IMG/VR virus record: IMGVR_UViG_3300037420_002072
Span: 1 to 43,408 of that record
DNA: 43,408 bases
Strand: one strand, 5' to 3'
DNA from: a virus
Taxonomy: Duplodnaviria > Caudoviricetes
Below the pieces are notes generated by a model. It had not been told where the DNA came from. It did no database searches and was given only the letters and a program-made list of their open reading frames with translations. The translations under genes were made by a program, and so were the position numbers. Positions 3,511 through 22,240 of the stretch are shown in pieces. Every line of letters begins with the position of its first letter. Within the stretch, counting starts at the first letter, position 1.

Positions 3511-4121
3511 CAGAACGGAACGTTGTCGGCGAGTTCAGGTTCTCGGAGCGGACCGCGCGGAGCGACGGTCCCTACCTTTTTGCATTGGGCGCATTGGCAG
3601 GTTTTGCCGAGGCCGGAATTCCAAAGGAGTTCGTGAACGGTCCAGCCGCGTTGCTGGCGGAGAGTCTTGACGCGGTTGGTGACGGTGAATTGGAGGTTGT
3701 CGAGCTGGCTGTAACGGCTGCCGTGGGCCGACCTGGGAGAATCGGAGAGATCGGCGGGAAGCATGCCGAATTTGTCACTGGCGATCTCGGCGATGTAACC
3801 GAGAGGATCAGCCACGCCGAGGGCTTTGAGTTGCGGAGCGAGCCAGTTGTTGATTTTCCAAAGCTGGCGGGCTTTTGGCTGGTTAAGAGCGCGCAGTTGC
3901 GGGGCGAGATCAGCCGGTTTGAGGATGGCCGCGCAGGCGGCCAGGAAGGCGTCCATATGGGCCTTGGTGAAATCTTTGGTGGAGGCCGGCAGGTTGTGTT
4001 GCTGGTGGAAGGCGGCGCGGAACTCGCCAAGCGGAAGCTTGGCGGTCCCGGTCCCGGAGGCGGCGGCGTAGACCTGGTTGAGGTTGGCCCAATAGAGTTT
4101 GCGTTGGTCGGGGGAGAGCAT
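3510..4121 (-). CDS. Hypothetical regulatory protein, possibly GemA/gp16-like; contains two palindromic repeats
   Basis: MLSPDQRKLYW...STKDFT pattern and position in a Mu early operon; CQCAQC near the C-terminus. Confidence 0.55.
   Translation of the reverse strand: MLSPDQRKLYWANLNQVYAAASGTGTAKLPLGEFRAAFHQQHNLPASTKDFTKAHMDAFLAACAAILKPADLAPQLRALNQPKARQLWKINNWLAPQLKALGVADPLGYIAEIASDKFGMLPADLSDSPRSAHGSRYSQLDNLQFTVTNRVKTLRQQRGWTVHELLWNSGLGKTCQCAQCKKVGTVAPRGPLREPELADNVPF
3547..3584 (-). repeat. GTAG-type REP-like palindrome, family 1
   Basis: AGCGGACCGCGCGGAGCGACGGTCCCTACCTTTTTGCA, identical over 38 bp to 10211-10248. Confidence 0.85.
4025..4048. repeat. Palindrome family 2 (also 10877-10900 and 20677-20700)
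   Basis: CGCCAAGC-(G/A)GAA-GCTTGGCG-(G/A)TCC, three copies. Confidence 0.8.
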
Positions 4122-4122
4122 C

Positions 4123-4665
4123 TTATGATTGTGGATTGGCTGTCAGAGCCTCGTGGAGTTCGGCTTCCATAAACGCGATCTTTTTTTTGAAGGCGGGATC
4201 GACCGAGCATTGGTCAGCGACATTGCGGCAGGCGAAGATGACGGAGCCGTGATCGCGCGCGAAGTAATCGCCGATGCGATTAAAGGTGGCGCCGGTGATC
4301 TGCCGGCAGAAATACATGGCGACGTGACGCGGGATGGTGAAGCAAACCTGGCGGCGCTGGCTGTCGCGAACGGATTTAATCGGCTGACCGAATTGTTCGC
4401 AGACGAATGCGACGATGGCGTCAAAGGCGTCCAGATCGGAGCCGGTTTTATGGGTGGCGAATTTCAAATCGAGATCGAGACGAAGATTGCGCGCGTAAGC
4501 GCGGAGACGCTGATCGACGGTCTCCATGATGGCGTCCTCGAACGCGGCGAGGCGGGCCTGGATGCGGGCGCGAATACGATCGTGCACGGTTTGGGCGCGC
4601 CATTTTTCGATTGGCTGGACTTTAGGCGAAGCCGCAGCGGCGAGAGAGTCGCAGGGAGATTTCAT
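4123..4665 (-). CDS. Protein with a DnaA C-terminal HTH (domain IV-like)
   Basis: PRHVAMYFCRQITGATFNRIGDYFARDHGSVIFACRNV matches the DnaA domain IV RQxAMYL...IG..F.RDHxTV motif. Confidence 0.85.
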   Translation of the reverse strand: MKSPCDSLAAAASPKVQPIEKWRAQTVHDRIRARIQARLAAFEDAIMETVDQRLRAYARNLRLDLDLKFATHKTGSDLDAFDAIVAFVCEQFGQPIKSVRDSQRRQVCFTIPRHVAMYFCRQITGATFNRIGDYFARDHGSVIFACRNVADQCSVDPAFKKKIAFMEAELHEALTANPQS

Positions 4666-4952
4666 ATTCCGGTTTGGGTTTGGATGAAGCCTGATGTGGC
4701 GGGCGGGTCGAGTGAGACGAATGGGAGCGATGGGACGGATGGGACTTGTGGGACGGATGGGGAGGCCGGCGCAGAGGCCGGCGATCCCATGGAGGGCCAG
4801 GCGTAGGCTTCCAACTCGTCGAGAGATTCGAAACGGATCGTGCCGTGCTGGCGGACAGCCATAGTCACGCCGTTGGATGAGATGACGAGGTTTTGGAAAT
4901 CCGGGTGTTCGGATTTTAACTTTTGCAGGAGATGGCGGAGTTCGGATTTCAT
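4662..4952 (-). CDS. Hypothetical protein with a 9-bp-repeat-encoded Pro/Ser tail
   Basis: Start MKSELRHLL at 4952; stop overlaps the next gene. Confidence 0.6.
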   Translation of the reverse strand: MKSELRHLLQKLKSEHPDFQNLVISSNGVTMAVRQHGTIRFESLDELEAYAWPSMGSPASAPASPSVPQVPSVPSLPFVSLDPPATSGFIQTQTGI

Positions 4953-4967
4953 GGAGAGTTGAAAGGA

Positions 4968-4994
4968 GCGGCCGGCCGGAGCGCGGCCGGCCGC
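4968..4994. repeat. Intergenic GC hairpin
   Basis: GCGGCCGGCCG-GAGCG-CGGCCGGCCGC, perfect 11-bp stem. Confidence 0.6.
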
Positions 4995-5007
4995 AGTCTG
5001 GGTGTCT

Positions 5008-5331
5008 TTATGTTGTGGGCGCGGTTGGCGTGGTGAAGGTCGGCAGGTTGTCGATGTGTTTGGCGAGAATCGCGTGAGCGCGACCAAGGCGTTCATACAG
5101 GCGGGCGAGCTGCTCGCGCAGGATGGCCGGATTCTCGTTGATCGAATAATGCGCGACCTGGTCGATCGAGTTGCGCACGTCCGTGCCGAGAATCTTTGCC
5201 GCTTCGTCGAGCTCGTCGCGTTTTTGGCGACGGGCGGCAGCGCTACGCGCCGCGACGACTTCTGGCGATTCGGGAACGGGCGGCGTGCCCGCATCGGTCG
5301 ATTCCACATTTTCTGTCTTCGGTTCTTTCAT
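5008..5331 (-). CDS. Hypothetical protein
   Basis: Start MKEPKTEN overlaps the upstream stop (ATGA). Confidence 0.6.
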   Translation of the reverse strand: MKEPKTENVESTDAGTPPVPESPEVVAARSAAARRQKRDELDEAAKILGTDVRNSIDQVAHYSINENPAILREQLARLYERLGRAHAILAKHIDNLPTFTTPTAPTT

Positions 5332-5540
5332 GTTTTGCTTTCGTTGAGTGTTGATGGTTCGGAAATCTCGATATGTTGATGGAGGAGAACGGAAAGTTTT
5401 TGGGTGAGGCTGGATTTGAGCCACGTCCCGGTGTGCTTATTCTTTTTCGTGATGATGTAGAGGTATTCGCCGTCTGCGAGCAGCTCGGCCGCCATGACGG
5501 CGGCGAGCTTTTCTAATTCAGGATGGGATTTTTCCGGCAT
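5328..5540 (-). CDS. Hypothetical protein
   Basis: Fits between Gam and the next gene with tight spacing. Confidence 0.5.
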   Translation of the reverse strand: MPEKSHPELEKLAAVMAAELLADGEYLYIITKKNKHTGTWLKSSLTQKLSVLLHQHIEISEPSTLNESKT

Positions 5541-5542
5541 CG

Positions 5543-6456: not shown

Positions 6457-6457
6457 A

Positions 6458-6755: not shown

Positions 6756-7994
6756 TCAGTCGAGGTCGGTCATTTGTTCGAGGGTCTTCAGGCCTTTGTA
6801 AGCGTCCTGGACGTGCTGCCAGGTCATCTTCTGTTTCTTTTTGCCGGCGACGTGGCAACCGGCTTGCAAATAGGTGCACCAGACGCCGAGGCCGCCGTGA
6901 TCCTGATCGTTGATCACGGTGGTTTGCAGCTTGAGCGCATCACCAGTAGCGGGCGGCAGACCGTAATCAGCCGCGAAGGCGTCGAGTTCCGCGCGCGCGG
7001 GAATGGCCGGCAGGCAAATCTTGGCAATGGCGCGGCGGCTGATCTGCTTGAGAAGCGTCTTGTGTTTGCCGCGTTGAAGCTGGTCTTCGATGATCTTTGT
7101 GCCGATGAAAACCATGCCGCAACCGCAGCGATCGAAAATTTCGCGGATGATTTCGAGCGTCTCGACCTGAAAGCGGCCGGTGAATACCTGGTGAAATTCG
7201 TCGAAGATCAAGGTCATCGTTTTTGAGAAACAACGAGTGATCCGCTCCTGCATGACGATGTTGGAGGTGTCGTCGGGCAGGTTAAGCTGCTGACACATCA
7301 ATCGAAGAACCGCGCGCTTGTTCGCGCCGGCCGGCAGCCGAAAGAGAATCGTCTGGCCTGCATTCAGGCGATGGAACTCGGCCGCGCCCGTTGATTTGCC
7401 GACCTGCCCGTCCGAATAAACAAAGATGATTTTGCGGTAAAGGCGGGCGGCTTCAAAAATCTTGAACAGGCGGCGGGTCAATCGCGTCGGCACGAATGAG
7501 CCGCGATGAAGAGCTTCAGTCTCTTCCAAGCGCGCGCGAAAGTCAGCGATGGCGCGGACGAATTGATCAACGCCGGCGTTGTCGCGCTTGCCTCTGAGGA
7601 TGCGATAGATGGTATGGCCGTCGTAGGGCGCGCCATTTTTGCGCCGGAGGAAATTGGCTAATTCCGCGAACGAATAGTCATTCTGGCAGGCGTAGGTGTG
7701 CAGCCAGCGAACAGCGGTGCGCTGATCTTCCGGCAGGCTTTCGGTCCAGCCAACAACAACGTCGGTCCCGATGTTGTATTTCTTGGCGTCACGATGCCTC
7801 TGCTGAAGCTCGGTTGGACCGTTGGAATTGGATTCGTTGAATTCGCCCGGCAATGGAAGATCGCCATCATCGTCAGCGGGCTTGATGCCGAGTTTTTCGC
7901 GAATGGCGAGTTGTGTGTCTGACTGCGAGGCGCGTTCGCGATCCGCGTTGCGCAGCGTTTCCGAGTTGATTTCAAGAGTTGAGTTTTGGGCCAT
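6756..7994 (-). CDS. MuB-like AAA+ transposition ATPase with an N-terminal HTH
   Basis: Walker A-like SDGQVGKS, Walker B LIFDE, LEIIREIFD, QISRR arginine finger; directly after the transposase. Confidence 0.88.
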   Translation of the reverse strand: MAQNSTLEINSETLRNADRERASQSDTQLAIREKLGIKPADDDGDLPLPGEFNESNSNGPTELQQRHRDAKKYNIGTDVVVGWTESLPEDQRTAVRWLHTYACQNDYSFAELANFLRRKNGAPYDGHTIYRILRGKRDNAGVDQFVRAIADFRARLEETEALHRGSFVPTRLTRRLFKIFEAARLYRKIIFVYSDGQVGKSTGAAEFHRLNAGQTILFRLPAGANKRAVLRLMCQQLNLPDDTSNIVMQERITRCFSKTMTLIFDEFHQVFTGRFQVETLEIIREIFDRCGCGMVFIGTKIIEDQLQRGKHKTLLKQISRRAIAKICLPAIPARAELDAFAADYGLPPATGDALKLQTTVINDQDHGGLGVWCTYLQAGCHVAGKKKQKMTWQHVQDAYKGLKTLEQMTDLD

Positions 7995-8009
7995 AGCGAT
8001 TTTTTAGGG

Positions 8010-10193
8010 TTAAAGAACGTCGTCGATTAAAGAGTTGGCTTCGGAGTCGGATTGCTCTGCAGGCTTCTGCGCGGAGGGCGCCAGCGTGACGCTGGACTCA
8101 ATATTTCCGGACGGACCGCGCGGAGCGGCGGTCCCTACCGCTTCCGCTGCGCCGTCGAGCAGATCATTGAGAGCCTGCTTGCCGCCTTTTCTGATGGACG
8201 CGCGGAGTTCTCTGGCCGATTCGATTTCTTCGGATGTGACGGGCTGGCCGTTTACGACCGCGAGATTGTTCCGATGCATGTCGCGATTGGCTTGGGCAAC
8301 GGGCAACGCGCGCGCGACCACGGGAGCCAGGCGGGCGGCTTCTTCTTTGCGGGCTTCGCCGAGCTGGCGATGGACATTGGCAACGTCGGCGCGGCAGGGA
8401 ACGATCTGCCGTTGGAGAGCCCCGACGTAGGCGCCTTTGCCATCGGCGAGAATCAATCGGTCGGGGTTGTGCGGTGAGAGATAAACGAGAAATTTGTCGC
8501 CATTGTTGCAATGCGGTCCGACCGGAAAACGGAGCGGTTCGGAATCGAGTTCCCGGTCTTCGATGGTGATATAGCCTCCGCGCACGTTGCGTTCTTCACC
8601 GAAATCCGGTCCGAGCAACGTGGGCAGCATGCATTCGCCGAGCTTTTGCAATTGGTTTGCATCGCGGTTCCAAACCTCCTGTGGAGAAAGATTGCGTGAA
8701 GCAGAATCAACGAACGGTTTCAACGCCTGGCGCTTGGCCGGCTCCATGGCGAGCCATTGTTCGTTTGAAAGCCAGACCGGTTCGGAGTTTGGCAGGGCGA
8801 GCATGAATTCCTGAACGAAGTGGCGGCATTTCTGCCAGCCTTCCAACTCGTGCTCGGTGCGGTTGTTGATGCGCGCAAAAATGTCGAGGGTGAGGCCGAC
8901 AAAATCGTAATAGTTGAGGACCGGATACTGGAGGAGATCGCGGCGATGCTCGGGCAACAGGCGCGCGAGCTTAAGGAGATTGTTGTTGTAACGTTCGATG
9001 CCGGCGAGCTGTGTGGGGCAATGATCGCGGTCCTTGCCAGTTGGCGCAGGGAGCGCGGCGCCTTCGTTGTGAACCAAATTGAAAAGCGATTCGAGAGCGG
9101 CCTTGAAACGCGGGTTGCCTTTGCTGGCGCCTTCAAACAGGCCGGGCATGTGGATGCTGGAAAGGCCAGCGCGATCCACGGTGACCTTGCCGCCCGTGGC
9201 TTTAAAAATGCGCTCGGCAAAGTCAGGGCGGATGGCGGCGGTTCCATTCTCAACGACCAGCGAGGTGCCGCGATCGTCGCCGCGAAAACCTTTGTTGCAG
9301 AGGATATCGACGACGAGCCAAAGCATGTCGCGCTCCTTCAGCTTTTTCTTGGCGCCTTCCTCGTCGATCAATGTCGGCTTAAAACCGATGCCGACCGCGC
9401 ACGCGCTGTAGAGATCAAGCGCCACGAGACCAAGCGGACGCGTGGCGCGGGTGTTGCCAGGGAAGTTGACCAGGTGATCGTAAACCAAGTCATCGAACAA
9501 ATAGAACTGACCGACGCTTAAGCCGGCGCGCGTGGTAAAGACTTTGCGCCTATGTTCGGACGCGCGCTCGCGGCCGAGGCGAGCGACGGCCAGCTCAAAT
9601 TTCTTCGGCGCGCAGCGATTGAGATTGGCCACGCTCCAACCTTTGGGGTAACCGTTCAGGCCATCGGCCTCCGGCCACGTGTCGTAACCGGGAAGTCTTT
9701 TGTAATGAATTTTTTTGCCGGTAACCGGGCAGAGACCGTAATGAGTGCGCCAGATTTCAAGCAGGGCGCGGCGGGCTGGCGCTGTTGCGCGCTGGTTGCG
9801 TTCACAGAGCGCTTTCCAGAATTCCAAGAACTCCTTAGGCAAGCCGGATTGTTCATCGCTATTCCAGAAAGCGGGGCCAGCCTGGGCTTTATCCAAAACG
9901 TCGCGCCAATCGCGGGTGTCGACATAGCGATAATATTTGCGGAGCAACGACTCGGCGCTCATGCCGCGCTCGTTCGGGCGTTCGAAAGCGATGGCGCGGG
10001 CTTCGGCGCGTTTACTGCGCGCCTCATGGATGCGCTGCAGAAGGGTCAGAACCGTCAAGGCGTTGTCGCGGACTTTGTCAGGAAGGCGCGCGAACAGTTC
10101 TTCGTCGGCTTTGGGAACCGCGAAAAAAATCAATGAGTCAGTGGGTGAATGAGTCAGTGAGTTTTCTTCGGTGGTCGTGAGATCGCTGATCAT
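8010..10193 (-). CDS. Mu-type DDE transposase (MuA-like)
   Basis: YLFDDLVYD, VVENGTAA, GNPRFKAALESLFN, INNRTEH and SPQEVW motifs; 727 aa next to the MuB-like gene. Confidence 0.88.
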   Translation of the reverse strand: MISDLTTTEENSLTHSPTDSLIFFAVPKADEELFARLPDKVRDNALTVLTLLQRIHEARSKRAEARAIAFERPNERGMSAESLLRKYYRYVDTRDWRDVLDKAQAGPAFWNSDEQSGLPKEFLEFWKALCERNQRATAPARRALLEIWRTHYGLCPVTGKKIHYKRLPGYDTWPEADGLNGYPKGWSVANLNRCAPKKFELAVARLGRERASEHRRKVFTTRAGLSVGQFYLFDDLVYDHLVNFPGNTRATRPLGLVALDLYSACAVGIGFKPTLIDEEGAKKKLKERDMLWLVVDILCNKGFRGDDRGTSLVVENGTAAIRPDFAERIFKATGGKVTVDRAGLSSIHMPGLFEGASKGNPRFKAALESLFNLVHNEGAALPAPTGKDRDHCPTQLAGIERYNNNLLKLARLLPEHRRDLLQYPVLNYYDFVGLTLDIFARINNRTEHELEGWQKCRHFVQEFMLALPNSEPVWLSNEQWLAMEPAKRQALKPFVDSASRNLSPQEVWNRDANQLQKLGECMLPTLLGPDFGEERNVRGGYITIEDRELDSEPLRFPVGPHCNNGDKFLVYLSPHNPDRLILADGKGAYVGALQRQIVPCRADVANVHRQLGEARKEEAARLAPVVARALPVAQANRDMHRNNLAVVNGQPVTSEEIESARELRASIRKGGKQALNDLLDGAAEAVGTAAPRGPSGNIESSVTLAPSAQKPAEQSDSEANSLIDDVL
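8112..8139 (-). repeat. REP-like family 1 copy in the transposase C-terminus
   Basis: CGGACCGCGCGGAGCGGCGGTCCCTACC. Confidence 0.85.
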
Positions 10194-10510
10194 AACTTTC
10201 CTTTCTTGAAAGCGGACCGCGCGGAGCGACGGTCCCTACCTTTTTGCACACGCGAGTTGGGAATGGTGAGATCGACGGCGGCGCGTTCACAGAGCGCGGC
10301 GATGTGGATAAGCGCGTCGAGATTTGTTGAGGGGTTGTCGTAGCAAGCGGCGATCGTCTTCGCGTTTTGGATGTAAACGATCGCGTGACGCATGCTTGGA
10401 AGCGGTGCCATTGAGTCAGCGCGTTCGGCGACGAGGCGGCGGAAAAAGTCGGCGTCGGTGAAATGGGAGTTATGGGAGCAATGGGACTGATGGGACTGAT
10501 GGGCTTTCAT
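10190..10510 (-). CDS. Hypothetical protein, paralog A of a tandem duplication
   Basis: N- and C-termini nearly identical to 10507-10854. Confidence 0.65.
   Translation of the reverse strand: MKAHQSHQSHCSHNSHFTDADFFRRLVAERADSMAPLPSMRHAIVYIQNAKTIAACYDNPSTNLDALIHIAALCERAAVDLTIPNSRVQKGRDRRSARSAFKKGKL
10211..10248 (-). repeat. REP-like family 1 copy
   Basis: Identical to 3547-3584. Confidence 0.85.
10462..10506. repeat. 9-bp tandem repeat array NATGGGACN (also 4711-4764, 10807-10851, 18353-18392)
   Basis: AATGGGAGT TATGGGAGC AATGGGACT GATGGGACT GATGGGCTT. Confidence 0.8.
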
Positions 10511-10854
10511 TTCTTCGAGCCTTTCGTCGAAGCGGACCGCGCGGAGCGACGGTCCCTACCAGCACGTGAATTTGGAATTGTTAAATCGACGGCGGCGCGT
10601 TCGCAGAGGGCGGCGATTTCGATTAGGATTTCGGTTTGGTCGGCCCAAAAGGAATGGACTTCGGCCGGGTTGATGGAAACGAAGCCCAAAGAGATTTCAG
10701 CAACCATTGAGGAAAGCGCTGATTTAATTTGAAAGGGTGAACGGTCGCGTAATTTGCTGTTGGCGCGGTCGGCGACGAGGCGGCGGAAGAAATCGGCGCC
10801 GGTGAAATGGGAGTTATGGGAGCAACGGGACTGATGGGACTGATGGGCTTTCAT
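10507..10854 (-). CDS. Hypothetical protein, paralog B of a tandem duplication
   Basis: MKAHQSHQS..SHNSHFT.ADFFRRLVA and IAALCERAAVDLTIPNSR shared with paralog A. Confidence 0.65.
   Translation of the reverse strand: MKAHQSHQSRCSHNSHFTGADFFRRLVADRANSKLRDRSPFQIKSALSSMVAEISLGFVSINPAEVHSFWADQTEILIEIAALCERAAVDLTIPNSRAGRDRRSARSASTKGSKK
10531..10560 (-). repeat. REP-like family 1 copy
   Basis: AGCGGACCGCGCGGAGCGACGGTCCCTACC. Confidence 0.85.
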
Positions 10855-11597
10855 TTCTTCGAGCCTTTCTTGTTCGCGCCAAGCGGAAGCTTGGCGGTCC
10901 TTGTTTTTTGGCGGCGGGACTTCATGAGCTGTCGGATGTGGGAACTGGTGGCGACCAGTTCATCGAGCAGCATGGAGAGGTCGGAGGCATCACAATCCTT
11001 TTGGATTTGCGCGGTGGTTCGCCAGGCGCGGGCGTCATTGGCGAGGCGGTGAGTGACGGCGACGTTCAGCTGCTTCTGCTCTTCTGCGGTGGGAGATGAT
11101 TTGCGGGAATTGTCGCGGTCCTTTTGATGGACTTTGTCGGCGATCAGGCCGTATTCGCGGAGCAGCTCCTTGTAAGCCTGGCCGTTGGTGACCTCGCGCA
11201 CCGCATCAGCGAAGGGTTTGATTTCCTTTTCGGAAAGTTCGCCGCTGGTGATTTGGAGTTGTTTGAAATTGAAGCTCGGCAGTTCCGATAGTTTGGGAAT
11301 GAGGGCTTCGGCCAGACCGATGAAATAATTGGCAGAGCGGTAGGACATCCCATCGGGCAAATGTTTATCGCACCATTTGAGCCATTCGCCGTGCGCGATT
11401 TGCTCGCGGATGCCGATGAGTTCGATGCCGGCCAGAACGTTGTAAACGACGAGCTGCGCGGCGGCGCGGCGTCCGCTGTGGTAATAAGCGCCGACGCGTT
11501 CGGCGCGTTCGTCGATCGAATTGGCGGGCGGGAGATACTCGGTCGGAATGACAGCCGGGACTTGCTGTTTTGGTTCAATTTTTGAGAGGGCGGCCAT
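10851..11597 (-). CDS. DUF3102-like phage protein
   Basis: AGIELIGIREQIAHGEWLKWCDKHL..MSYRSANYFI motif, common upstream of Mu-like transposases. Confidence 0.75.
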   Translation of the reverse strand: MAALSKIEPKQQVPAVIPTEYLPPANSIDERAERVGAYYHSGRRAAAQLVVYNVLAGIELIGIREQIAHGEWLKWCDKHLPDGMSYRSANYFIGLAEALIPKLSELPSFNFKQLQITSGELSEKEIKPFADAVREVTNGQAYKELLREYGLIADKVHQKDRDNSRKSSPTAEEQKQLNVAVTHRLANDARAWRTTAQIQKDCDASDLSMLLDELVATSSHIRQLMKSRRQKTRTAKLPLGANKKGSKK

Positions 11598-11599: not shown

Positions 11600-11932
11600 C
11601 TAGTTTTGTTCGGTTGCAGGTTGGGATTGAGTTTGATCCGCGCCGTCAGCGAGGGGGTGAGCCTCGTCGGTGTGACTTTGAGAAGCTTCGGGCGCGGAAA
11701 TATTTTCGGATGGCCCAGTGATGGCAGCCGGCCCTACCTGGGAGCGGGCGCCGTCGAGGATGTCGGCCGCAGTGCGCAAGTGATAGCCAGCCAGGAAAAG
11801 TTTGCTGCGGCCGTCCAGGGCGTGGATGGAGGCGAGATCGGTAAAGCGGTCCAGAGCGGCGCGCGCCTCAGTAACGAGGCTGAGCGTCGAAGCGAGTTCG
11901 AGCGACATCTGGATTCGATCGCGTGTGGTCAT
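11600..11932 (-). CDS. Hypothetical protein
   Basis: Start MTTRDRIQ overlaps the upstream stop. Confidence 0.6.
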   Translation of the reverse strand: MTTRDRIQMSLELASTLSLVTEARAALDRFTDLASIHALDGRSKLFLAGYHLRTAADILDGARSQVGPAAITGPSENISAPEASQSHTDEAHPLADGADQTQSQPATEQN

Positions 11933-12618
11933 AGTTCGATATTGTTTTGGCGGGCGAGACGACGAGTAACGAAAGCAGCCAGTGACGAGCGCGAGACGCG
12001 GAGGTGCAATAATTCCGAGCGGCCGACATCGGCGCCGGAAATCAAGCCGTGCTGGTAGAGGTTGCGGATGTGATCGCCGTCGCAACGCACAGCCTGGGCG
12101 GCTTCAATGACATTCAGAGCGGAGCGCGCGCCGATGCGAAGGCTCGGCAGCCAACCGCCGATGTCGGGATTGAACGGAGCAAAGAGCCAATCATTCACCG
12201 TGCGGATCGTTTCGTTGGCGAGTTGCGTCCGTTGCGCAGCGGTCAGGAAAGTGAAAGCCTGGGCGGCCGTTTTGCGGACGATGCGATAAATGGCGCGCTT
12301 TCGGACCTGGCCGGCCGGGCTTCCTTCGCCTTCAGCGAGATTGATTGGAAAGGCGAGCAACTTGCCGTCGTCGATGAAGTTGCGAATCTGCTGGTCGGAA
12401 CATTTCAGTTCGGTGGCAGCTTCCTTGACGGTGAGCAGAGGAAAGTTGTGGAGGACGCCGGCGAAGTCGATGTCGAGCGGAAGTTCCATGGCTTCAGCAA
12501 CGCCGATGCGCGGGGGCTGCAAGCGGGAGTCTTTGCCGGCTGGCGAATTGATGGCGCGCATCAGCGAAGCCGGAGGCAGCTTGTTGTGAAACGGCGCAGT
12601 TGTCGGTGCGGCGGTCAT
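11929..12618 (-). CDS. Protein with two excisionase/MerR-type HTH domains
   Basis: LLTVKEAATELKCSDQQIRNFIDDGKL and LNVIEAAQAVRCDGDHIRNLYQHGLI...RVSRSSLAAF. Confidence 0.8.
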   Translation of the reverse strand: MTAAPTTAPFHNKLPPASLMRAINSPAGKDSRLQPPRIGVAEAMELPLDIDFAGVLHNFPLLTVKEAATELKCSDQQIRNFIDDGKLLAFPINLAEGEGSPAGQVRKRAIYRIVRKTAAQAFTFLTAAQRTQLANETIRTVNDWLFAPFNPDIGGWLPSLRIGARSALNVIEAAQAVRCDGDHIRNLYQHGLISGADVGRSELLHLRVSRSSLAAFVTRRLARQNNIEL

Positions 12619-14078: not shown

Positions 14079-14780
14079 ATGATCCTCAAAAAAGAATGCG
14101 CGTGCGGGCAGAACCTGGAGTTTGAGCAGGAAGATGCGCCGTATATTAATTGTCCCTCCTGCGGCCGCCTGGTGAGCGATTTGTTTGATCCGGCGACGGC
14201 GGCGGCTCTGCCGAGGCCACTCACAGAAAACGCGCGATACGCAAATGTGGCCGGCAACGCCAAGGAGAAAGAAGCGAATGCCAAAGGACCGGCAAGTCCA
14301 CCGCCGATGCCACGAGCCAAGGGACTATTTGTCATCGTGGGCGATGAAACGAAAGGGCCATATTCGCTGAAGCAGGTCAAAGCCATGTATGAGAGCGGCC
14401 AGTTAACCATGGACACGCAATGCTGCCGCGAAGGGGACGAGAAGTGGCGGCCGTTGGTGGAATTGGAAAACGAAATTTTCCAAAGTGACCGCAGGCAGAC
14501 GCCGCCTCTTATCCCAACGACGAACGTGAACGTTACGATGCCGCCGCCCCAAATGGTTCGCGTCGCCAAGGCGCGATGGGTTTACATCGTGCTCGGATTA
14601 TTTCTGGGGCTATTGGGCGTCCACAATTTTTATGCGGGCTACAACAATCGCGGAGCGGGGCAACTCGTGCTGACGCTTTTGACGGGCTGGTTGATTCTGC
14701 CACTTTTTTTTATCGCCCTCTGGGTATTGCTGGAAATTGCGTCGGTGAATCAGGACGCGAACGGTGTGCCGTTCGTTTGA
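14079..14780 (+). CDS. Zn-ribbon + GYF_2 (DUF4339) + TM2 membrane protein
   Basis: CACG...CPSCG; KGPYSLKQVKAMYESGQL...W.PL; YIVLGLFLGLLGVHNFYAG. Confidence 0.85.
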   Translation: MILKKECACGQNLEFEQEDAPYINCPSCGRLVSDLFDPATAAALPRPLTENARYANVAGNAKEKEANAKGPASPPPMPRAKGLFVIVGDETKGPYSLKQVKAMYESGQLTMDTQCCREGDEKWRPLVELENEIFQSDRRQTPPLIPTTNVNVTMPPPQMVRVAKARWVYIVLGLFLGLLGVHNFYAGYNNRGAGQLVLTLLTGWLILPLFFIALWVLLEIASVNQDANGVPFV

Positions 14781-14787
14781 TCGTTAA

Positions 14788-15135
14788 ATGAAAGGCACGC
14801 GCTACATCGGATTGCTTCTGACGCTCACGATCGCCGGCTTCGGCGCGACGATGTTTTTGGCGATGCGTGGCAGCGATGCCAATGCCGGAAGCGAGCCGAG
14901 GATCACGGCCGGGCCGGATTGGCGAAAGATGAAACCGATCGCGCTGATTTACAATTCAGGGACGGGCGAGCTTTCGGCTGAAGTCTACGCTGTGGAGAAG
15001 GCGCATCATTTCCCGAACGGGAAAACTGAGGAAGGTTGGTTTGTGCGGCCGATTGATGTGCCAAATGCCACGCCAATTTGGACGGTGAAGCCCCACAAGG
15101 CGAAAGTGATGTTTCAACATGCCAATCAAAATTAA
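14788..15135 (+). CDS. Exported or membrane-anchored hypothetical protein
   Basis: N-terminal hydrophobic segment YIGLLLTLTIAGFGATMFLAM. Confidence 0.65.
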   Translation: MKGTRYIGLLLTLTIAGFGATMFLAMRGSDANAGSEPRITAGPDWRKMKPIALIYNSGTGELSAEVYAVEKAHHFPNGKTEEGWFVRPIDVPNATPIWTVKPHKAKVMFQHANQN

Positions 15136-15538
15136 ACGTGGACGCCGCTTCTTGGGAGAAGCCTATGTCGCGGTTAGTTTACGCATCGCGTCAGACAAGG
15201 CCCCGCCGGGGAACTTCATTGCGACTTCGATACTGGCAAGACTGTTCGAGGTTCGTTTGCGCGAAGCCAGTCTTTACGCATTGGTGCGGGGAATCGGTGA
15301 GTTTAATTGTTCATGCTATGATCTCGTGATGAATGACGATTTCGTCGTCAATGCTGTTGGCATGTTGGAAACAATTGTTCAGGAGGAAGTCGCGTTTGCG
15401 GCATTTCGCATTGAGGAAGTAGACGAGCAATGGAATTTGAAATCGGTTTTCGCAGAGAGTGGCGGACCGTGGGATGAACCGCATCAACGAATTCAAGCGG
15501 CGGTGATCACCACGGGAGCAGACGGCGACGTATTTTGA
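15119..15538 (+). CDS. Hypothetical protein
   Basis: 139-aa ORF continuing the cassette; lower GC. Confidence 0.55.
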   Translation: MPIKIKRGRRFLGEAYVAVSLRIASDKAPPGNFIATSILARLFEVRLREASLYALVRGIGEFNCSCYDLVMNDDFVVNAVGMLETIVQEEVAFAAFRIEEVDEQWNLKSVFAESGGPWDEPHQRIQAAVITTGADGDVF

Positions 15539-15637
15539 AAAGTGTGATGAAGATTTAACAAACAAACAAAGCACGAGGGCCGGAGCGTTGGAGCGCCCCG
15601 ACCCAAGTGGATCAACTCATAGGACGGTTAATCACGT

Positions 15638-15865
15638 ATGAGCGACCCGGCAAAAAGAATGCCGATGCCCGCGAGTTTCGGGCAATTCAAAACGCTGTTC
15701 GTCAGCGGCGGATTGAAAGCGGCGATATTGGTGACGAGCGTCAACGGCCGGCAACGGCAGCGATCGCGCGAGTTCAAAGACGCGCACGCGGCGCTGGATT
15801 GGTGTGTTGAGAACGGCGCGATGATGGTGTTCACGCCGCCCTCCACCCGGACGGGGCACAATTGA
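15638..15865 (+). CDS. Hypothetical protein
   Basis: Preceded by a hairpin (~15577-15604); tight spacing to the next gene. Confidence 0.55.
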   Translation: MSDPAKRMPMPASFGQFKTLFVSGGLKAAILVTSVNGRQRQRSREFKDAHAALDWCVENGAMMVFTPPSTRTGHN

Positions 15866-15866
15866 T

Positions 15867-16805
15867 ATGCATACAGTAAGTCTTGGGCGGCTGCACGACC
15901 ACATTGCATTGGCGCCAGGCTCGGTGCCAGCCACCCGTGTGGGACTACACATCACGTTAAGCAGCCTAAGGCATACGATCGCATCGATCATTTCCTACGA
16001 TGACAGTTACATTAGGGATGATGCGGTGGAACTACTGGACATCACGGCCCGTGACCTCGCAACGCTCCTGGATGTGTTGTTACAAACCGTAAACAACCCG
16101 CCAGACGAAAATAAAATGGTCCAGCTTGAACAAGCGATTCATCAACTAACGAACACGTTGGCACTGGATTTTCAAAACGCCGTTGCGGGTGCGAAAAACA
16201 CTGAGGCGCGCGAAAAGTTGCAAGCCGCTGAGCGTGAGAAAGCCGACCTTCAAAAGACTGTCCAGACCATCACTACCGAAGCCGCGCAGGATGCGGTGCG
16301 AATTCACGCGGAAAAATTCGAACAATTCCGAGTCGAAAATGCACTGCATGCGGAGTTTTGGGCGAACAGGCTTATAGCGATCGCCGGCCTCGCAGTGGTG
16401 CTTGTCATGGCGGAAACGCATTTTCTGTCCGACAAAGCAGACCCGACGACGACGACGATCATGCTCCTGCACGAAGTCACGCCGCGCGCGTTGATTGTAT
16501 CCATTTGCTTCTTCGCGTTGGTGTTTGCCGCGCGGAACTATTCCGCCGCGCGACATAATCAAATGGTGAATGGGCGAAGAGCGGCTGCGCTCGACAGCTT
16601 CGATTCGTTTTTCAAAGCGACCGCGAGCGAAAAGGAGTTGCAGATGGAAGTCCTGAAACAAGTGACAGCGGCGATCTTTTCGGATCAAACGACAGGCTAC
16701 CTGATCGAAAAACCGGTCGACAAACAAATCGATTCAACCGCTCTAAAGACAATTAAAGACGCTGCCGAACTCGCGATTAAGAACGCGAAGGGGACATCGC
16801 ATTGA
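15867..16805 (+). CDS. Coiled-coil, two-TM membrane protein
   Basis: Coiled coil, two hydrophobic helices, then RNYSAARHN..NGRRAAALDSF. Confidence 0.7.
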   Translation: MHTVSLGRLHDHIALAPGSVPATRVGLHITLSSLRHTIASIISYDDSYIRDDAVELLDITARDLATLLDVLLQTVNNPPDENKMVQLEQAIHQLTNTLALDFQNAVAGAKNTEAREKLQAAEREKADLQKTVQTITTEAAQDAVRIHAEKFEQFRVENALHAEFWANRLIAIAGLAVVLVMAETHFLSDKADPTTTTIMLLHEVTPRALIVSICFFALVFAARNYSAARHNQMVNGRRAAALDSFDSFFKATASEKELQMEVLKQVTAAIFSDQTTGYLIEKPVDKQIDSTALKTIKDAAELAIKNAKGTSH

Positions 16806-16815
16806 TGAGGAAACT

Positions 16816-17652
16816 ATGAGGAAACTATTGTGGACCGGTGTGGCTGCAATTGCAGTTGTAGCCACCATTTTCCTCTGGCGGCTGAGTCCGCAATGGTTTT
16901 GGGTTGGATGGGAGATCGTAGCTGGAGCGATGTTGTCGGTTGGATGCATAGGCGAGTGGATTCTCATTTCCAGGGAGAAGCCAAAAACGCCAGAGGAAGA
17001 ACTGAAGCACCGGCGAGAGAAGGTGTGCACGATCCTAGTAACGGCTGGCGTGGCTTTGGAATTCCTCGCGCTGTTCCATACAATCCCTGAAGGGATAAAG
17101 CTTGAACGTGACATCGTCGCCATCGAACAAAAAAACTTAATATTGCGCACAAACCTGGTCGCGCTTGAGGAGAAACTGCAACCAAGAACAATTTCAATTG
17201 AACAGCGAAAACGGTTTTTGCAAATAATGGCGGATCGGCCGAAAGGGCCGGCGAGAGTAATGTGCTTAAGCGCGACGGCTGAATCGCACGTGTTTGCTGA
17301 GCAACTTCGAGACCTGCTCGATGATGCGGGTTACAAAACGACAAATGGAGTTCAGATTGAATCTTTCGGGACGGGTTACTACAGAGTTCCAATCGGTGAC
17401 ACAGAGCCTATAGGCGATCTTGCAATCATTGTGTATGGAGAACCGAAAAACTTTGCATGGCCCGGCGCGACATTCGAATGGAAAGGCAGCCAAGTATATT
17501 CACACTTCTCGACAAACGACCTGCGCGAGGTGCCGTTCATAATCGACATGGGACTGAGTCAAATTGGTTTTAAAGTAAACCTTGAAGGGAATCGGGAAGT
17601 TTTGCATCCGAATGAATGGGCCATCCTTGTGCACGAACAGCAGCGGCGATAA
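16816..17652 (+). CDS. Multi-pass membrane protein with a C-terminal soluble domain
   Basis: Three N-terminal hydrophobic segments; LQPRTIS.EQRKRF. Confidence 0.7.
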   Translation: MRKLLWTGVAAIAVVATIFLWRLSPQWFWVGWEIVAGAMLSVGCIGEWILISREKPKTPEEELKHRREKVCTILVTAGVALEFLALFHTIPEGIKLERDIVAIEQKNLILRTNLVALEEKLQPRTISIEQRKRFLQIMADRPKGPARVMCLSATAESHVFAEQLRDLLDDAGYKTTNGVQIESFGTGYYRVPIGDTEPIGDLAIIVYGEPKNFAWPGATFEWKGSQVYSHFSTNDLREVPFIIDMGLSQIGFKVNLEGNREVLHPNEWAILVHEQQRR

Positions 17653-18130: not shown

Positions 18131-19069
18131 ATGAATAATGCTGTTGAATTCCTGAAGGGCAAAAAGACGTATGGGGTTGCGCTGATCGGCGGATTGTATC
18201 TGCTCGGCTGTTTCGTTGGCTGGTTTCAGTTCGATGAGAAAGTTTGCGCCGCGTTGGGAATCGGATTTGTGGCGACGTTCCGCAGCGCGCTCAATGGAAT
18301 TTTTCCGAAGCCCGAAGCGGTCCAGGGAAATGTTTTAAGCACGCCCGGTTCGAATGGGACCAATGCGACCAATAAGACTGATGGGACGAATGTTATTCCG
18401 CTGCGAGTGATTATTGGGCTCGTTGGAACACTCGCACTCCCGATGATTTTCTCCGGCTGCGCGGCTCTCGATAAAGCGGCGGCGGCGGTGAGTTCACCGC
18501 GATCACACATGGTCACCAATGTCGTAACGCAAGTGGTGACGAATCTTGTTCCAGTGGCTGTGCCGGTGCCAGGCGCGACAGTGGTGCAAACGAATTTTGT
18601 CGATCGCGTCACGACGAACACGATCGAACGGGTGACGACGGTCACGAATTGGGTGGAGAAGGAGTCGATTGCAACAGGTCTGCAGACGGCGAAAACAGGC
18701 GCTGCAATCACCACAGCCGTCGCGCCGCAGTTCGGCGGGCCGGCCACGGCGGGTTTGGGATTGGCGAGCGCTGTCCTGGCCGGATTGGTGGCGTGGAAAA
18801 ATAAAAGGGAAAAGGAAGCGGCATTGTCGGTGGCGAACGCGTCGGCCCAGAACACGCAAATTGCGAATGACAACGCAATGGCATTGCAGGGCATCAACGA
18901 CGATTTAACGGCGCAGTTGCATGCGGTGGTGACCGGCGTCGAGCAAGTGACGACGGCGATCGACGCGAACACCGGGGAGAAAGTGAAGGCGATCATCGCG
19001 AGGGTTTCCAAAGACCAGGGCGTGAGCGATGCGCTGCATGCGACGGTGAAGGCGATCACGCAGTCGTGA
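18131..19069 (+). CDS. Holin-like N-terminus fused to a lipobox-containing membrane protein
   Basis: FLKGKKTY plus two TM helices; internal hydrophobic stretch ending IFSG-C; TN-rich segment; a further TM; first late gene. Confidence 0.6.
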   Translation: MNNAVEFLKGKKTYGVALIGGLYLLGCFVGWFQFDEKVCAALGIGFVATFRSALNGIFPKPEAVQGNVLSTPGSNGTNATNKTDGTNVIPLRVIIGLVGTLALPMIFSGCAALDKAAAAVSSPRSHMVTNVVTQVVTNLVPVAVPVPGATVVQTNFVDRVTTNTIERVTTVTNWVEKESIATGLQTAKTGAAITTAVAPQFGGPATAGLGLASAVLAGLVAWKNKREKEAALSVANASAQNTQIANDNAMALQGINDDLTAQLHAVVTGVEQVTTAIDANTGEKVKAIIARVSKDQGVSDALHATVKAITQS

Positions 19070-19531: not shown

Positions 19532-19674
19532 TGACCATCGGCGAACGCAAAGAATGTGATGAGCGGGAATGCGCGATGTGGAATCGCGGCTTCAAGATTG
19601 GCGCAATCCTCGGCGGTTTATTCGGACTGGCGCTCGGCGCGGCGTTCGTCGGCGCGAAGATTCTGTTTTTCTGA
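19531..19674 (+). CDS. 47-aa single-TM glycine-zipper peptide (not in the ORF track)
   Basis: MTIGERKECDERECAMWNRGFKIGAILGGLFGLALGAAFVGAKILFF; TGATG coupling upstream, 2 bp to the next ATG. Confidence 0.6.
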   Translation: MTIGERKECDERECAMWNRGFKIGAILGGLFGLALGAAFVGAKILFF

Positions 19675-19676
19675 TC

Positions 19677-19946: not shown

Positions 19947-19949
19947 TGA

Positions 19950-20510
19950 ATGAGCAAGCGAAGATCAGACAGCATTCTGTTGCACCTGCCGGAGGAACAG
20001 CAGGCGCAGTTGTGCGAGTGGATGATGAGCGGTGTGCCGGCATGGAAATGCAAGGAGCTGCTCGAAAAGGAATTCGGTGTTTCGTTTCGCTCGCTCTCTG
20101 TCTTCAAGCCGTTCTGGGAGGAAGTAGTCGAGCCGGCGATCAAGGGGAAGTGGGCGCGCGCGGCCGGGACCGCGAATCGATTTGCGCAGGAGATTGCCGC
20201 GCATCCCACGAAGTTCGACGAAGCGACGATCGCGGCCTTGAAACAAAAAGCGTTCGAGCTGGCGATTTCGCCTGGGCAGGACCCGGAAGCGGTGAAGGCA
20301 GTTTTCTCACTCGTGTTGAAGGCAAGGGATCAGGATTTGGACGCGGAGAATTTGAAACTGCAGCGGGATCGATTCGAGTTCGATGCGGCCAGGCGCGCGA
20401 TGGAGGAAGCCGCCAAGATCAAAACGATCGCGGCGGATGGAGCGTTGAACAGCGATCAGAAGATCGCGGCCGTGCGCAAAGTTTTGTTTGGAATTTCACC
20501 ACAGCAGTGA
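19950..20510 (+). CDS. Terminase small subunit (Mu gp27/DUF3486-like)
   Basis: RSDSILLHLPEEQQAQLCEW N-terminus; position before terL. Confidence 0.8.
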   Translation: MSKRRSDSILLHLPEEQQAQLCEWMMSGVPAWKCKELLEKEFGVSFRSLSVFKPFWEEVVEPAIKGKWARAAGTANRFAQEIAAHPTKFDEATIAALKQKAFELAISPGQDPEAVKAVFSLVLKARDQDLDAENLKLQRDRFEFDAARRAMEEAAKIKTIAADGALNSDQKIAAVRKVLFGISPQQ

Positions 20511-22240
20511 AACGGAATAACCACAACGCGAAGGCCGGGGGGATTGAAAGCGCAAAGAGCGGCGCAGAAAACGCCGCATCCCCGGCCACAAATTTAAACG
20601 CAAAGACCGCCAAGACCGCGAAGGCGCAAGCAAGTGGAAGAGGTCCGCGCGGAGCGACGGACCCTACCGACGCACACGCCAAGCAGAAGCTTGGCGATCC
20701 CACCGCGAAGGCGGAGTTGCCGGCGCATCTCGACACGTCGAGCGAGCAAAAGCCGCTCATCAATTTTCGGCCGTATCAGTGGGAGCCGTTTGCGAATCGC
20801 ACCAACGGCATCGAGGTGTGGTGTTGGTCGCGGCAGATCGGCAAGAGCTACACGCTCGCAGCGTGGGCGGTGGATCGATTGCTGACGCGGCCGGGCCGGC
20901 TGGTGACGACCTTGAGCAACTCGAAAGCGAACGGGCAGGAGTTGAACATGAAGGTGGCCGAGGTTTGCGAGAAGCTCGGCCTGGCGCTGAAGGGGGAACG
21001 GCCCGCGCGGAGCGACGGGCCCTACCTTGGGGAATACGAGCAATACGATTTTTCGGAGGATGTGACTTACGAGAGCATGTCTCTGGAAACGCATATCACG
21101 GTGGGGGGGAGGAAGGGACGCATCAAAGTTTTGGCGGCGAGCCCGAGAACGGCGCGCGGATTCTCCGGTGATCTGATTCTCGATGAGTTTGCCTTCCATG
21201 AAAATTCCCAGGCGATCTGGGAAGCGGCTGAGCCGATCATTTCGAGCAACCCGGATTTTCTCTGTCGCATCGCGAGCACGCCCAATGGGAAGCACAACAT
21301 GTTTTATCGGTTGTGCAACGACCCGAGCGTTGTGCTTCGCAAAGTGCCGCGCAGCGAAGCCTTCAAACAAGGGCTGAAGATTTACCATCCGAAAACGCGC
21401 CAGCCGATCACGCCCGACGAGGCGCGCGCGCTGGCCCAGGATAAACGCGCCTACGATCAAAATTACGAATGCCAGTTCGCGGACGAGAACATGGCGCTGC
21501 TCACGTATGAGTTGATCGCGCGCGCGGAGACCGAAGGCGTCGGCGTGATTTGCCAGGGCGAATGGTCAGCGGCGGCAATTGCAAAACTGCGCGCCATCAT
21601 CGGACCGGTTTTTGTGGGCGTGGACGTCGGCCGCAATCGCGATCTCACGGTGATCACGGTTTTGGAGAAGGTCGAAAACGTTTTCAAGATGCGAGCGATG
21701 CTCGAACTGGAAAACATGCGGCTGCCGGATCAGAAGCGCCGTTTAAAAATCGTCGCGGAGCATCCGCATTTCCGCAAAGGCAAAGTCGACATGACCGGGC
21801 TCGGCGTCGGGCTTTTGGAATTTGCGCAGGATGATTTTGGACGCACGCGTTGGGAAGGCGTGAATTTTTCCACGACGGTGCCAGTGACCGCGCGCCTGGT
21901 CGCCGAAGGGCGCAAACAGGAAACGGCGAAGGTCACCGAAGTAATGGCGACCGAAATGCTCGGCGAGTTCGAGGACAACCGGGTGCGAATCATCGCCGAT
22001 GTGGATCTGCGCGAAGATTTGCGGAAGCCGGAACGGATCGTGACGGCAACAGGACGCGTGAGCATCGCGGCGACCCGCGATGAGGCGGGGCATGCCGATC
22101 GGTTTTGGAGCCTGGCGCTGGCGCTATATGCGGCGCGCGGCGGCAACACTGCGTTTGTTTACGGCGCCGTCAAAGGCCCGGAGCGAGGGTCGCCTGAAAT
22201 CAAAGGGCGCATGGTCGAGAGAGGGGGCGGTTGCGTATGA
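20507..22240 (+). CDS. Terminase large subunit (Mu gp28-like)
   Basis: FRPYQ, WSRQIGKS, TARGFSGDLILDEFAFH, STPNG, QNYECQF, GVDVGRNRDLT, DMTGLG, GHADRFWSLALA; GTG start overlaps the terS stop (start uncertain). Confidence 0.93.
   Translation: MKRNNHNAKAGGIESAKSGAENAASPATNLNAKTAKTAKAQASGRGPRGATDPTDAHAKQKLGDPTAKAELPAHLDTSSEQKPLINFRPYQWEPFANRTNGIEVWCWSRQIGKSYTLAAWAVDRLLTRPGRLVTTLSNSKANGQELNMKVAEVCEKLGLALKGERPARSDGPYLGEYEQYDFSEDVTYESMSLETHITVGGRKGRIKVLAASPRTARGFSGDLILDEFAFHENSQAIWEAAEPIISSNPDFLCRIASTPNGKHNMFYRLCNDPSVVLRKVPRSEAFKQGLKIYHPKTRQPITPDEARALAQDKRAYDQNYECQFADENMALLTYELIARAETEGVGVICQGEWSAAAIAKLRAIIGPVFVGVDVGRNRDLTVITVLEKVENVFKMRAMLELENMRLPDQKRRLKIVAEHPHFRKGKVDMTGLGVGLLEFAQDDFGRTRWEGVNFSTTVPVTARLVAEGRKQETAKVTEVMATEMLGEFEDNRVRIIADVDLREDLRKPERIVTATGRVSIAATRDEAGHADRFWSLALALYAARGGNTAFVYGAVKGPERGSPEIKGRMVERGGGCV
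20642..20668 (-). repeat. REP-like family 1 copy in the terL 5' region
   Basis: GGTCCGCGCGGAGCGACGGACCCTACC, with a compensatory stem change. Confidence 0.85.
21000..21026 (-). repeat. REP-like family 1 copy in the terL ATPase domain
   Basis: GGCCCGCGCGGAGCGACGGGCCCTACC, with a second compensatory change. Confidence 0.85.

What the first reader, a model, noticed from the sequence alone, without database searches (positions are those of the whole stretch)
3547..21026. REP-like hairpins embedded in-frame in essential genes, with compensatory stem changes
Seen: six clear copies (3547, 8112, 10211, 10531, 20642, 21000) and one degenerate copy (11712-11738) of a 27-30-bp element reading GGTAGG plus hairpin on the minus strand, all inside ORFs. 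One stem pair covaries: GGACCG/CGGTCC, GGTCCG/CGGACC, GGCCCG/CGGGCC. The element is translated in four frames (VGTVAPRGP, GRDRRSARS, GPRGATDPT, RPARSDGPY), including in the transposase and within the terminase ATPase domain. Known: GTAG-REPs are normally extragenic and spread by RAYT/HUH enzymes; Rickettsia RPEs are a coding precedent. Inference: the hairpin, not the peptide, is conserved, so this is either a coding-tolerant mobile palindrome or a dispersed cis signal. No RAYT is encoded in the window.
Basis: partly seen in the sequence, partly recalled or inferred. Interest (0 to 1): 0.82.

Follow-up and report, generated by a model that had tools for sequence, protein, structure and literature searches.

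The report
Host REP palindromes colonising Mu-like phage
A Mu-like soil phage carries six intact copies and one relic of a bacterial 27-base hairpin repeat (a GTAG-type REP common in Verrucomicrobiota genomes) inside its genes, likely pasted in by the host's REP transposase and tolerated because they fall in gene tails and predicted flexible loops; coding REPs are known from bacteria, and what this case adds is a phage lineage likely hit again and again at the same spots.

Summary
In detail: six 27-bp GTAG+hairpin copies and one relic, all on the minus strand, all in ORFs, read in four frames. The element is a host REP, with 66, 62 and 35 copies in three Verrucomicrobiota genomes. In one of them sister copies flank a RAYT gene; the phage has no RAYT. 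The terminase copy is a 16-aa insertion in a variable loop. The others lie in a predicted disordered N-terminus or in C-terminal tails; three of six are in small genes of unknown function. Homologues show empty and filled alleles, with different subfamilies and frames at the same sites, which points to repeated colonisation. Covariation holds in a larger sample but mostly mirrors host subfamilies, and the relic has lost its hairpin, so a phage cis signal is not supported. In-frame GTAG REPs are published for Opitutus terrae, and this scan has noted REPs in another prophage and in coding DNA elsewhere. The unexplained extra: all four multi-copy repeat families keep one orientation in this genome and family A does so in close kin, but not in distant Mu-like phages or one host chromosome.

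The parts
3550..3576 (-). REP family A copy (A-T stem) in the C-terminal tail of small ORF 3510-4121, residue 183 of 203, right after the conserved Cys cluster; reads VGTVAPRGP
8113..8139 (-). REP family A copy in the C-terminal tail of the Mu-like transposase, residues 686-694 of 727; reads VGTAAPRGP
   Evidence: bridged without differences by run X2
8073..8102 (-). Second, decayed hairpin element behind the MuA copy (reads IESSVTLAPS); related peptides recur at other sites of MuA and in the 3510-family N-terminal loop
10214..10240 (-). REP family A copy 8 codons before the end of small ORF 10190-10510; reads GRDRRSARS
10534..10560 (-). REP family A copy at the same site of the tandem paralogue 10507-10854 (likely one insertion duplicated with the gene)
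11712..11738 (-). Relic of family A, hairpin lost, in ORF 11600-12085; shares its 3' flank with the 8113 copy
20642..20668 (-). REP family A copy (T-A stem, not seen in 69 host copies) read antisense in the predicted disordered N-terminal extension of TerL, residues 46-54
   Evidence: bridged by runs X2 and X4
21000..21026 (-). REP family A copy (C-G stem) read antisense in a loop of the TerL ATPase domain, residues 165-173
   Evidence: bridged by run X2
20987..21034 (+). Approximate 48-bp (16-aa) insertion that holds the 21000 copy; borders from protein alignment only
8010..10193 (-). Mu-like transposase (PHROG 310), next to a MuB-like AAA ATPase at 6756-7994
20507..22240 (+). Terminase large subunit, 577 aa; start supported by overlap with the preceding stop codon and by homologue P0091 starting at the same place
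3510..4121 (-). Small conserved phage gene of unknown function with two insertion hot spots (N-terminal loop, C-terminal tail)
10190..10854 (-). Two tandem paralogous small ORFs, each with a 9-mer array at the start and a REP at the end
4026..4049 (-). Palindrome family B (also 10878-10901 and 20678-20701); all three in ORFs, one orientation
26170..26196 (-). REP family C (GGAG/GTAG-tagged, RAYT-adjacent in host genomes), intergenic; decayed copies at 18415-18441 and 25248-25274; all on the minus strand
10463..10498 (+). Tandem 9-mer array family D (also 4721-4756, 10807-10842, about 18345-18394), one orientation
20597..20623 (+). Short tandem repeat (family E) in the TerL N-terminal extension; many other contigs of the soil runs match it

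Best explanation
The element is a GTAG-type REP of Verrucomicrobiota genomes that sits in frame in a Mu-like phage, likely inserted in trans by the host's RAYT (HUH Y1 nuclease) and likely kept as a near-neutral passenger in gene tails and predicted flexible loops. Steps: (1) shown: the same sequence is a dispersed host repeat, and sister copies flank RAYT genes. (2) Inferred from E. coli and other TnpA-REP biochemistry: RAYT binds the single-stranded GTAG+hairpin, cuts and strand-transfers, and so can act on a resident or replicating prophage. (3) Shown: five of the element's six frames are stop-free and the phage is 93% coding, so most surviving insertions must be in frame. (4) Shown by alignment and a predicted model: survivors lie in variable loops, disordered extensions and C-terminal tails. 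(5) Inferred: copies then spread in the lineage by gene duplication and exchange of small modules between co-oriented genes, are gained or replaced repeatedly at the same permissive sites, and decay. The stem covariation mostly records RAYT-shaped host subfamilies, not selection in the phage.
For: Host repeat: 47 exact-match stretches in the species-genome collection, 45 labelled Verrucomicrobiota; 66, 62, 35, 4 and 6 copies in G001-G005, 0 for the reversed control. RAYT link: L194 RAYT (NF047646, 86.8 bits, cut-off 80) has sister REPs on both sides; L198 RAYT (73.5 bits, 5' part apparently broken) ends in a REP whose GTAG supplies its stop and is followed by a copy one base from the 21000 variant. 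Insertion: the TerL loop segment is 58 aa here against 42 aa in 74 of 114 anchored proteins, including the closest, P0091 at 86%; 11 of 15 viral homologues lack it; in the model it lies between helix 140-164 and strand 174-181 at pLDDT about 60, and residues 1-78 are largely below 50. Repeated gain or loss: the intact MuA tail peptide occurs in three supported clades, each with a sister lacking it; a sister REP peptide sits inside the core of P0008; 13 of 21 members of the 3510 family carry family-A peptides at two sites in two frames; 6 of 13 members of the 10507 family carry it, as two host subfamilies at one site, the others do not. Covariation in hosts: three stem pairs change on both sides. 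Same behaviour elsewhere: in frame in a host epimerase and an MBOAT gene, and in a GpA terminase and a DnaB gene of other viral contigs.
Against: The true host is unknown and no RAYT flanked by the exact A-T variant was found. No DNA-level empty site was obtained, so insertion borders and target rule are unknown; the TerL insert is 48 bp, longer than the 27-bp REP. Host copies often come as inverted pairs, whereas all phage copies are singles. The T-A stem variant occurs in the phage only (0 of 69 host copies), so one compensatory change may have arisen in place. The exact peptide persists in MuA tails of proteins about 60% identical, which could also mean selection or recombination. The one-strand orientation is only partly explained by duplication. 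RAYT-mediated REP insertion has not been shown in vivo (PMC8266576 calls the dissemination mechanism unresolved).
Confidence: 0.75

Rival explanations
1. Replication-polarity filter: phage replicative transposition exposes one strand as single-stranded DNA, so host RAYT either inserts REPs on one strand or cuts and removes those on the exposed strand, leaving survivors on the other. This adds to the best explanation and does not replace it.
For: All 7 A, 3 B, 3 C and 4 D copies keep one orientation per family across oppositely transcribed early and late genes. Family-A peptides in early-gene homologues are all sense (15 hits in the 3510 family, 6 in the 10507 family, 3 in MuA) although sense offers only 2 of 5 open frames. 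C copies (5 of 5) and D arrays (5 of 5) in related Mu-like loci have the window's orientation. The plus strand is G-skewed in both regions (0.178, 0.087). IS200/IS605 Y1 enzymes work on the lagging-strand template (PMC6006769).
Against: Copies are not independent (about four founders for A, P about 0.13 alone) and the test is post hoc. Family-A sister copies in more distant Mu-like loci are mixed (L115, L117, L223, L226, L228, L229 partly or wholly opposite). A generic GTAG-hairpin scan shows no excess over control tags (25 sense vs 39 antisense in early regions). No replichore bias in host G003 (21 of 35, p 0.94). One-ended Mu replication is recalled; I did not find it in the passages of PMC10052514 read.
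Confidence: 0.2
2. The REPs were captured with small pieces of host DNA by the phage's own transposition and recombination (insertion next to REP clusters or into itself, packaging of host ends), with no direct RAYT action on the phage.
For: A Pseudomonas transposable phage has integration hot spots next to BIMEs and inserts into its own genome in 0.4% of events (PMC5977238, abstract and passages). Inserts carry extra flanks. A composite module (family A + linker + second hairpin) recurs in different phage genes but is at background level in five host genomes.
Against: Inserts are 30-50 bp and centred on the REP; no longer host sequence travels with them in the alignments. Several unrelated repeat families fill the same sites.
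Confidence: 0.12
3. The phage has co-opted the hairpins as cis signals (mRNA stability or translation tuning near gene ends, or protein-binding sites), so the structure is under selection in the phage.
For: The four intact early-gene copies and the relic lie within 8-37 codons of the stop and in sense; five of six intact copies keep a host-like sequence; one phage-only compensatory pair.
Against: Close homologues lack the element; one copy has decayed; late-gene copies are antisense; unrelated repeats occupy the same sites; C-terminal tails are also where insertions are tolerated.
Confidence: 0.08
4. Assembly chimera: abundant host REP k-mers were stitched into a phage contig.
For: The 21000 variant is matched by very many other contigs in the same soil runs (summed depth 368-3036 against about 6-12 for the phage).
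Against: Contigs from other runs bridge three copies with 0 differences; frames stay open; homologous proteins from other data sets carry the same peptides.
Confidence: 0.01

Closest known systems
Intragenic GTAG REPs of Opitutus terrae (GTAG-17, -18, -19; Di Nocera et al. 2013, PMC3733652)
   Same: GTAG tag plus short GC-rich stem, same phylum, in-frame insertion into real proteins in several frames, suggested to sit in linkers or loops
   Different: Different sequence: none of the 70 O. terrae rows read gives this family's peptides (the consensus figure could not be seen). More than half of the published inserts are dimers or groups, whereas the phage copies are singles. That paper does not mention phages.
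REP/REPIN-RAYT (TnpA-REP) systems, e.g. E. coli REPtron, group 2 REPs with a bulged stem (PMC8266576, PMC6006769)
   Same: 5' GTAG foot, irregular stem, compensatory subfamilies, RAYT gene flanked by inverted REPs in a host genome
   Different: Here on a mobile replicon without its own RAYT, coding, unpaired; REPINs are described as almost only extragenic and vertically inherited (bioRxiv 10.1101/2021.07.10.451892)
Rickettsia palindromic elements (RPE-1, RPE-4, RPE-6; as cited in PMC3733652)
   Same: Palindromes inserted in frame in functional proteins
   Different: RPE-1 is longer and RPE-4/6 are CGTC-tagged; this element is a 27-bp GTAG type with a RAYT link
Mu-like transposable phages; BIME-adjacent hot spots of Pseudomonas phage Ab30 (PMC5977238)
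   Same: MuA/MuB, Gam, Mu-type portal and protease; contact between a transposable phage and REP clusters
   Different: There the phage inserts next to host REPs; here REPs lie inside phage genes

Membership tests
GTAG-type REP | 20-40 bp imperfect palindrome with GTAG at the 5' foot | tested here: met
GTAG-type REP | Dispersed at many copies in a bacterial genome | tested here: met
   66, 62, 35 copies in G001-G003; control 0
GTAG-type REP | Mostly outside genes in the host | tested here: met
   5 of 42 host copies lie deep in long ORFs against 198 of 279 random positions; the test ignores copies near gene ends. In the phage 6 of 6 are coding, an exception already published for O. terrae
GTAG-type REP | Stem maintained by compensatory changes | tested here: met
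   23 distinct rows: 95.2% paired vs 85.9% shuffled, 19 two-sided cells, 0/500; the count of covarying pairs (3) is not above shuffles, 277/500
GTAG-type REP | Family members flank a RAYT gene (REPtron) | tested here: met
   L194 (sister variant, both sides), L198 (one base from the 21000 variant, downstream only); not found for the exact A-T variant
GTAG-type REP | Bound and cut as single-stranded DNA by the cognate RAYT | not testable with these tools
   needs biochemistry
REPIN/BIME | Two REPs in inverted orientation within about 130 bp | tested here: not met
   All phage copies of family A are on one strand; inverted pairs occur in hosts
Autonomous IS200/IS605 element or REPtron in the phage | Y1 HUH transposase gene between the hairpins | tested here: not met
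   no NF047646 or PF01797 match at E<=1; the record may be incomplete
MITE / DDE-mobilised miniature element | Constant target-site duplication around a terminal inverted repeat | tested here: inconclusive
   By eye a 6-bp direct repeat lies near both sides of the 21000 copy but none is common to the copies; no DNA-level empty site was obtained
Mu-like transposable phage (carrier) | MuA + MuB, Mu-type head genes | tested here: met
Mu-like transposable phage (carrier) | Integrated prophage ends or variable host ends | not tested
   ends not defined; linear record

The most novel reading that the evidence does not exclude
This Mu-like lineage is a recording strip and a vehicle for host REP-RAYT activity: host RAYT repeatedly inserts or swaps REPs at the same permissive phage sites, a strand-specific filter set by phage replicative transposition leaves them all on one strand, and the phage carries REPs of one host into others. 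That would give the first in vivo read-out of RAYT polarity and a horizontal route for elements thought to be vertically inherited.
Probability: 0.2. Interest if true: 0.7.

Novelty: new variant of a known kind. Interest (0 to 1): 0.38.

Why it matters
How RAYT spreads REPs in vivo is an open question. Phage genes with matched empty and filled alleles, different subfamilies at one site and a possible strand rule give natural substrates and predictions for that test. The repeats also point to the host group of an uncultured phage, and they mark sites in a terminase and a transposase that tolerate insertions. The core phenomenon, in-frame GTAG REPs, is already published, which caps the interest.

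Tried and rejected
Exact family-A pattern in viral contigs: 0 hits; a looser pattern gave 14 stretches. MuA single-protein scan of viral contigs: nothing. Alignment scans gave only relatives of 29-49% identity, so no DNA-level empty site. HUH motif or RAYT within 1.5 kb of the 47 exact host matches: none; RAYT loci found with PF01797 were flanked by other REPs or by none, apart from one sister copy near L067. Family B is not a repeat in G001-G005 and was not found in the 250 loci. The extended 3' flank module is at background level in the five hosts. No close MuA in those five genomes (one at 31%), so none is shown to be the host. A joint skipping 20610-20676 in one contig of run X2 (net 57 bp, 25-letter side) is more likely another organism's two adjacent repeats than an empty allele; not counted. 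No RNA holder listed. L194 RAYT has no match in the GenBank phage set. Replichore bias in G003: none. Generic GTAG-hairpin strand test in 107 Mu-like loci: no signal over control tags. The P0001 and P0241 peptide hits were dropped as native sequence. The careful MuA tree did not finish; the quick tree (SH-aLRT only, 23 rows, tails trimmed) was used. An inverted-repeat scan returned a parameter error and was not repeated.
Full report
Setting. The window is a whole viral record of 43,408 bp, linear, rated 50% complete. It is a Mu-like transposable phage: transposase 8010-10193 (PHROG 310), MuB-like AAA ATPase, Gam and a S24 repressor, then terminase 20507-22240, Mu-type portal and protease. Early genes run leftward and late genes rightward. 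Named homologues of MuA and TerL are mostly from Verrucomicrobia. Five runs hold the early region, four labelled soil and one rhizosphere; one may be the source and one holds only a small share.

Observation. Six copies of a 27-bp GGTAGG-hairpin lie at 3550, 8113, 10214, 10534, 20642 and 21000, all on the minus strand, none in 100 shuffles. Each folds into a 6-bp stem, a one-base bulge and a 3-bp stem. The relic at 11712 matches the 8113 copy and its flank at 27 of 40 positions (0.004 expected) but has no hairpin (z +0.2). Four frames are used. Five of the element's six frames are stop-free and 93% of the window is coding, so six of six coding is expected at P about 0.65. Run X2 bridges 7585-8458 and 20594-21120, and X4 bridges 20315-21004, with no differences. 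The listed pieces do not show bridges for 3550, 10214, 10534 or the relic; the tables were cut.

It is a host REP. An exact scan of the species-genome collection gave 47 stretches from 7 genomes, 45 labelled Verrucomicrobiota and 41 from two genomes. With up to 3 mismatches G001-G005 hold 66, 62, 35, 4 and 6 copies, with 0 for the reversed control. Host copies mostly avoid gene interiors: 5 of 42 with enough flank lie deep in long ORFs against 198 of 279 random positions. Some are in frame, for example in an epimerase and an MBOAT gene (4 of 13 ORFs scanned had a Pfam family). In G003 a RAYT above the NF047646 cut-off has sister REPs on both sides (L194). A second, apparently 5'-broken RAYT takes its stop codon from a REP and is followed by a copy one base from the phage's 21000 variant (L198). 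No RAYT is in the window.

Insertions at tolerant sites. In TerL the segment holding the 21000 copy is 58 aa against 42 aa in 74 of 114 anchored proteins (120 examined, 6 without anchor, 4 mis-anchored), including the closest relative at 86%. Other lineages have unrelated inserts of 4-20 aa there (one much longer), so it is a variable loop. The AlphaFold model (mean pLDDT 83) puts it in a coil between helix 140-164 and strand 174-181 at pLDDT about 60, away from the Walker motifs (motif names recalled). The 20642 copy lies in residues 1-78, largely below pLDDT 50. In MuA the copy is 34 codons before the stop. The closest homologue (76%) lacks it, and the intact peptide appears in three supported clades, each with a sister lacking it (22 of the 89 homologues were used, quick tree). 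P0008 has a sister REP peptide inside the conserved core. In the 3510 family 13 of 21 proteins carry family-A peptides, at two sites and in two frames, and other repeat peptides or nothing fill those sites in the rest. In the 10507 family 6 of 13 carry it, as either of two host subfamilies at one site, and the rest do not (one 1432-aa hit left out). The 10214 and 10534 copies are likely one event duplicated with the gene.

Covariation. Among 69 host copies three stem pairs change on both sides (C-G/A-T, C-G/G-C, G-C/A-T); these loci were partly selected by patterns with fixed stems. On 23 distinct rows 95.2% of cells pair against 85.9% shuffled (0/500), though the number of covarying pairs is not above shuffles. 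So the hairpin is the conserved feature of the family, as expected for a RAYT substrate. Two of the three phage variants are simply the common host subfamilies. Only the T-A pair at 20642 is unique to the phage; template-switch repair of a palindrome could produce it without selection (inference).

Mechanism. Shown: identity with a host REP family, its RAYT association, open frames, tolerant sites, patchy distribution, decay. Inferred: RAYT acts in trans on prophage DNA when it is single-stranded; selection keeps in-frame inserts in loops and tails; copies then move between phage genes. The last step rests on a composite module found in the MuA tail and in the 3510-family loop that is at background level in five host genomes. 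TnpA-REP cuts single-stranded REP but not its complement in vitro, and the spreading mechanism is stated as unresolved (PMC8266576, passages).

Strand pattern. The window also holds families B (3 copies), C (3; a second RAYT-adjacent host REP) and D (4 tandem arrays), plus a single array of family E. Each multi-copy family keeps one orientation across early and late genes. Family-A peptides in early-gene homologues are all sense, and C and D in related loci agree 5 of 5 each. Against a general rule: the copies are not independent, family-A sisters in distant Mu-like loci are mixed, a generic scan shows no excess, and G003 shows no replichore bias. One TerL homologue has an inverted pair (P0197). 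I rate a replication-polarity filter at 0.2.

Literature seen. PMC3733652: section 15 whole, passages, and part 1 of 3 of supplementary file 3 (70 O. terrae rows; none with this family's peptides); its consensus figure is not held, so the family could be listed there unseen. Passages only: PMC6006769, PMC8266576, PMC3390384 (REP-poor regions often match atypical DNA, some with mobile elements), PMC3116915, PMC5977238, PMC12306157, PMC10052514 and bioRxiv 10.1101/2021.07.10.451892 (its supplements are closed). Seven searches returned no paper on REPs inside phage genes; the library lacks most subscription journals. Earlier notes of this scan report a REP in another prophage and in-frame REPs in other bacteria; I did not re-test those.

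Verdict. A real, new GTAG-REP family member in an unusual carrier. The repeated filling of the same phage sites and the possible strand rule make it a variant worth a modest follow-up: interest 0.38.

Noticed in passing
window 4026-4049, 10878-10901, 20678-20701: A second palindrome family (B) in frame in three genes; not a repeat in the five host genomes tested, though other contigs of the soil runs match the 20678 copy
   Followed up: partly
window 18415-18441, 25248-25274, 26170-26196: Third family (C), a GGAG/GTAG REP with up to 121 copies in G005 and next to RAYT genes in G002, G004 and G005; two of three phage copies are intergenic
   Followed up: partly
window 4721-4756, 10463-10498, 10807-10842, 18345-18394: Tandem 9-mer arrays in coding DNA, same orientation here and in related Mu-like loci L004, L007, L099; origin unexplained
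   Followed up: partly
proteins P0210-P0230: The 3510 family is a sink for many unrelated repeat peptides at two or three fixed sites, with empty alleles; a good set for dating insertions
   Followed up: partly
L220-L224 (one viral contig of 35.9 kb): Eleven family-A sister copies in both orientations, many in long ORFs, no Mu marker genes; nature of the contig not determined
   Followed up: no
L219:2856-2881 and L227:1277-1302: Sister REPs in frame just after the ATPase domain of a GpA-type terminase and in the linker of a DnaB helicase in other viral contigs
   Followed up: partly
L063 and L064: Two further REPtrons with different GTAG REP families in G001 and G004
   Followed up: no
window 1059-2811 and 27846-28652: Phage carries a small PolX-like protein, a C5 cytosine methylase and a D12 adenine methylase
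   Followed up: no
window 14079-17652: Lower-GC cargo between repressor and late genes, including a GYF/TM2 membrane protein and unannotated membrane proteins; no family A, B, C or D copy here
   Followed up: no
window 1-43408: Plus strand is G-rich throughout, most strongly in the leftward-transcribed early region
   Followed up: partly
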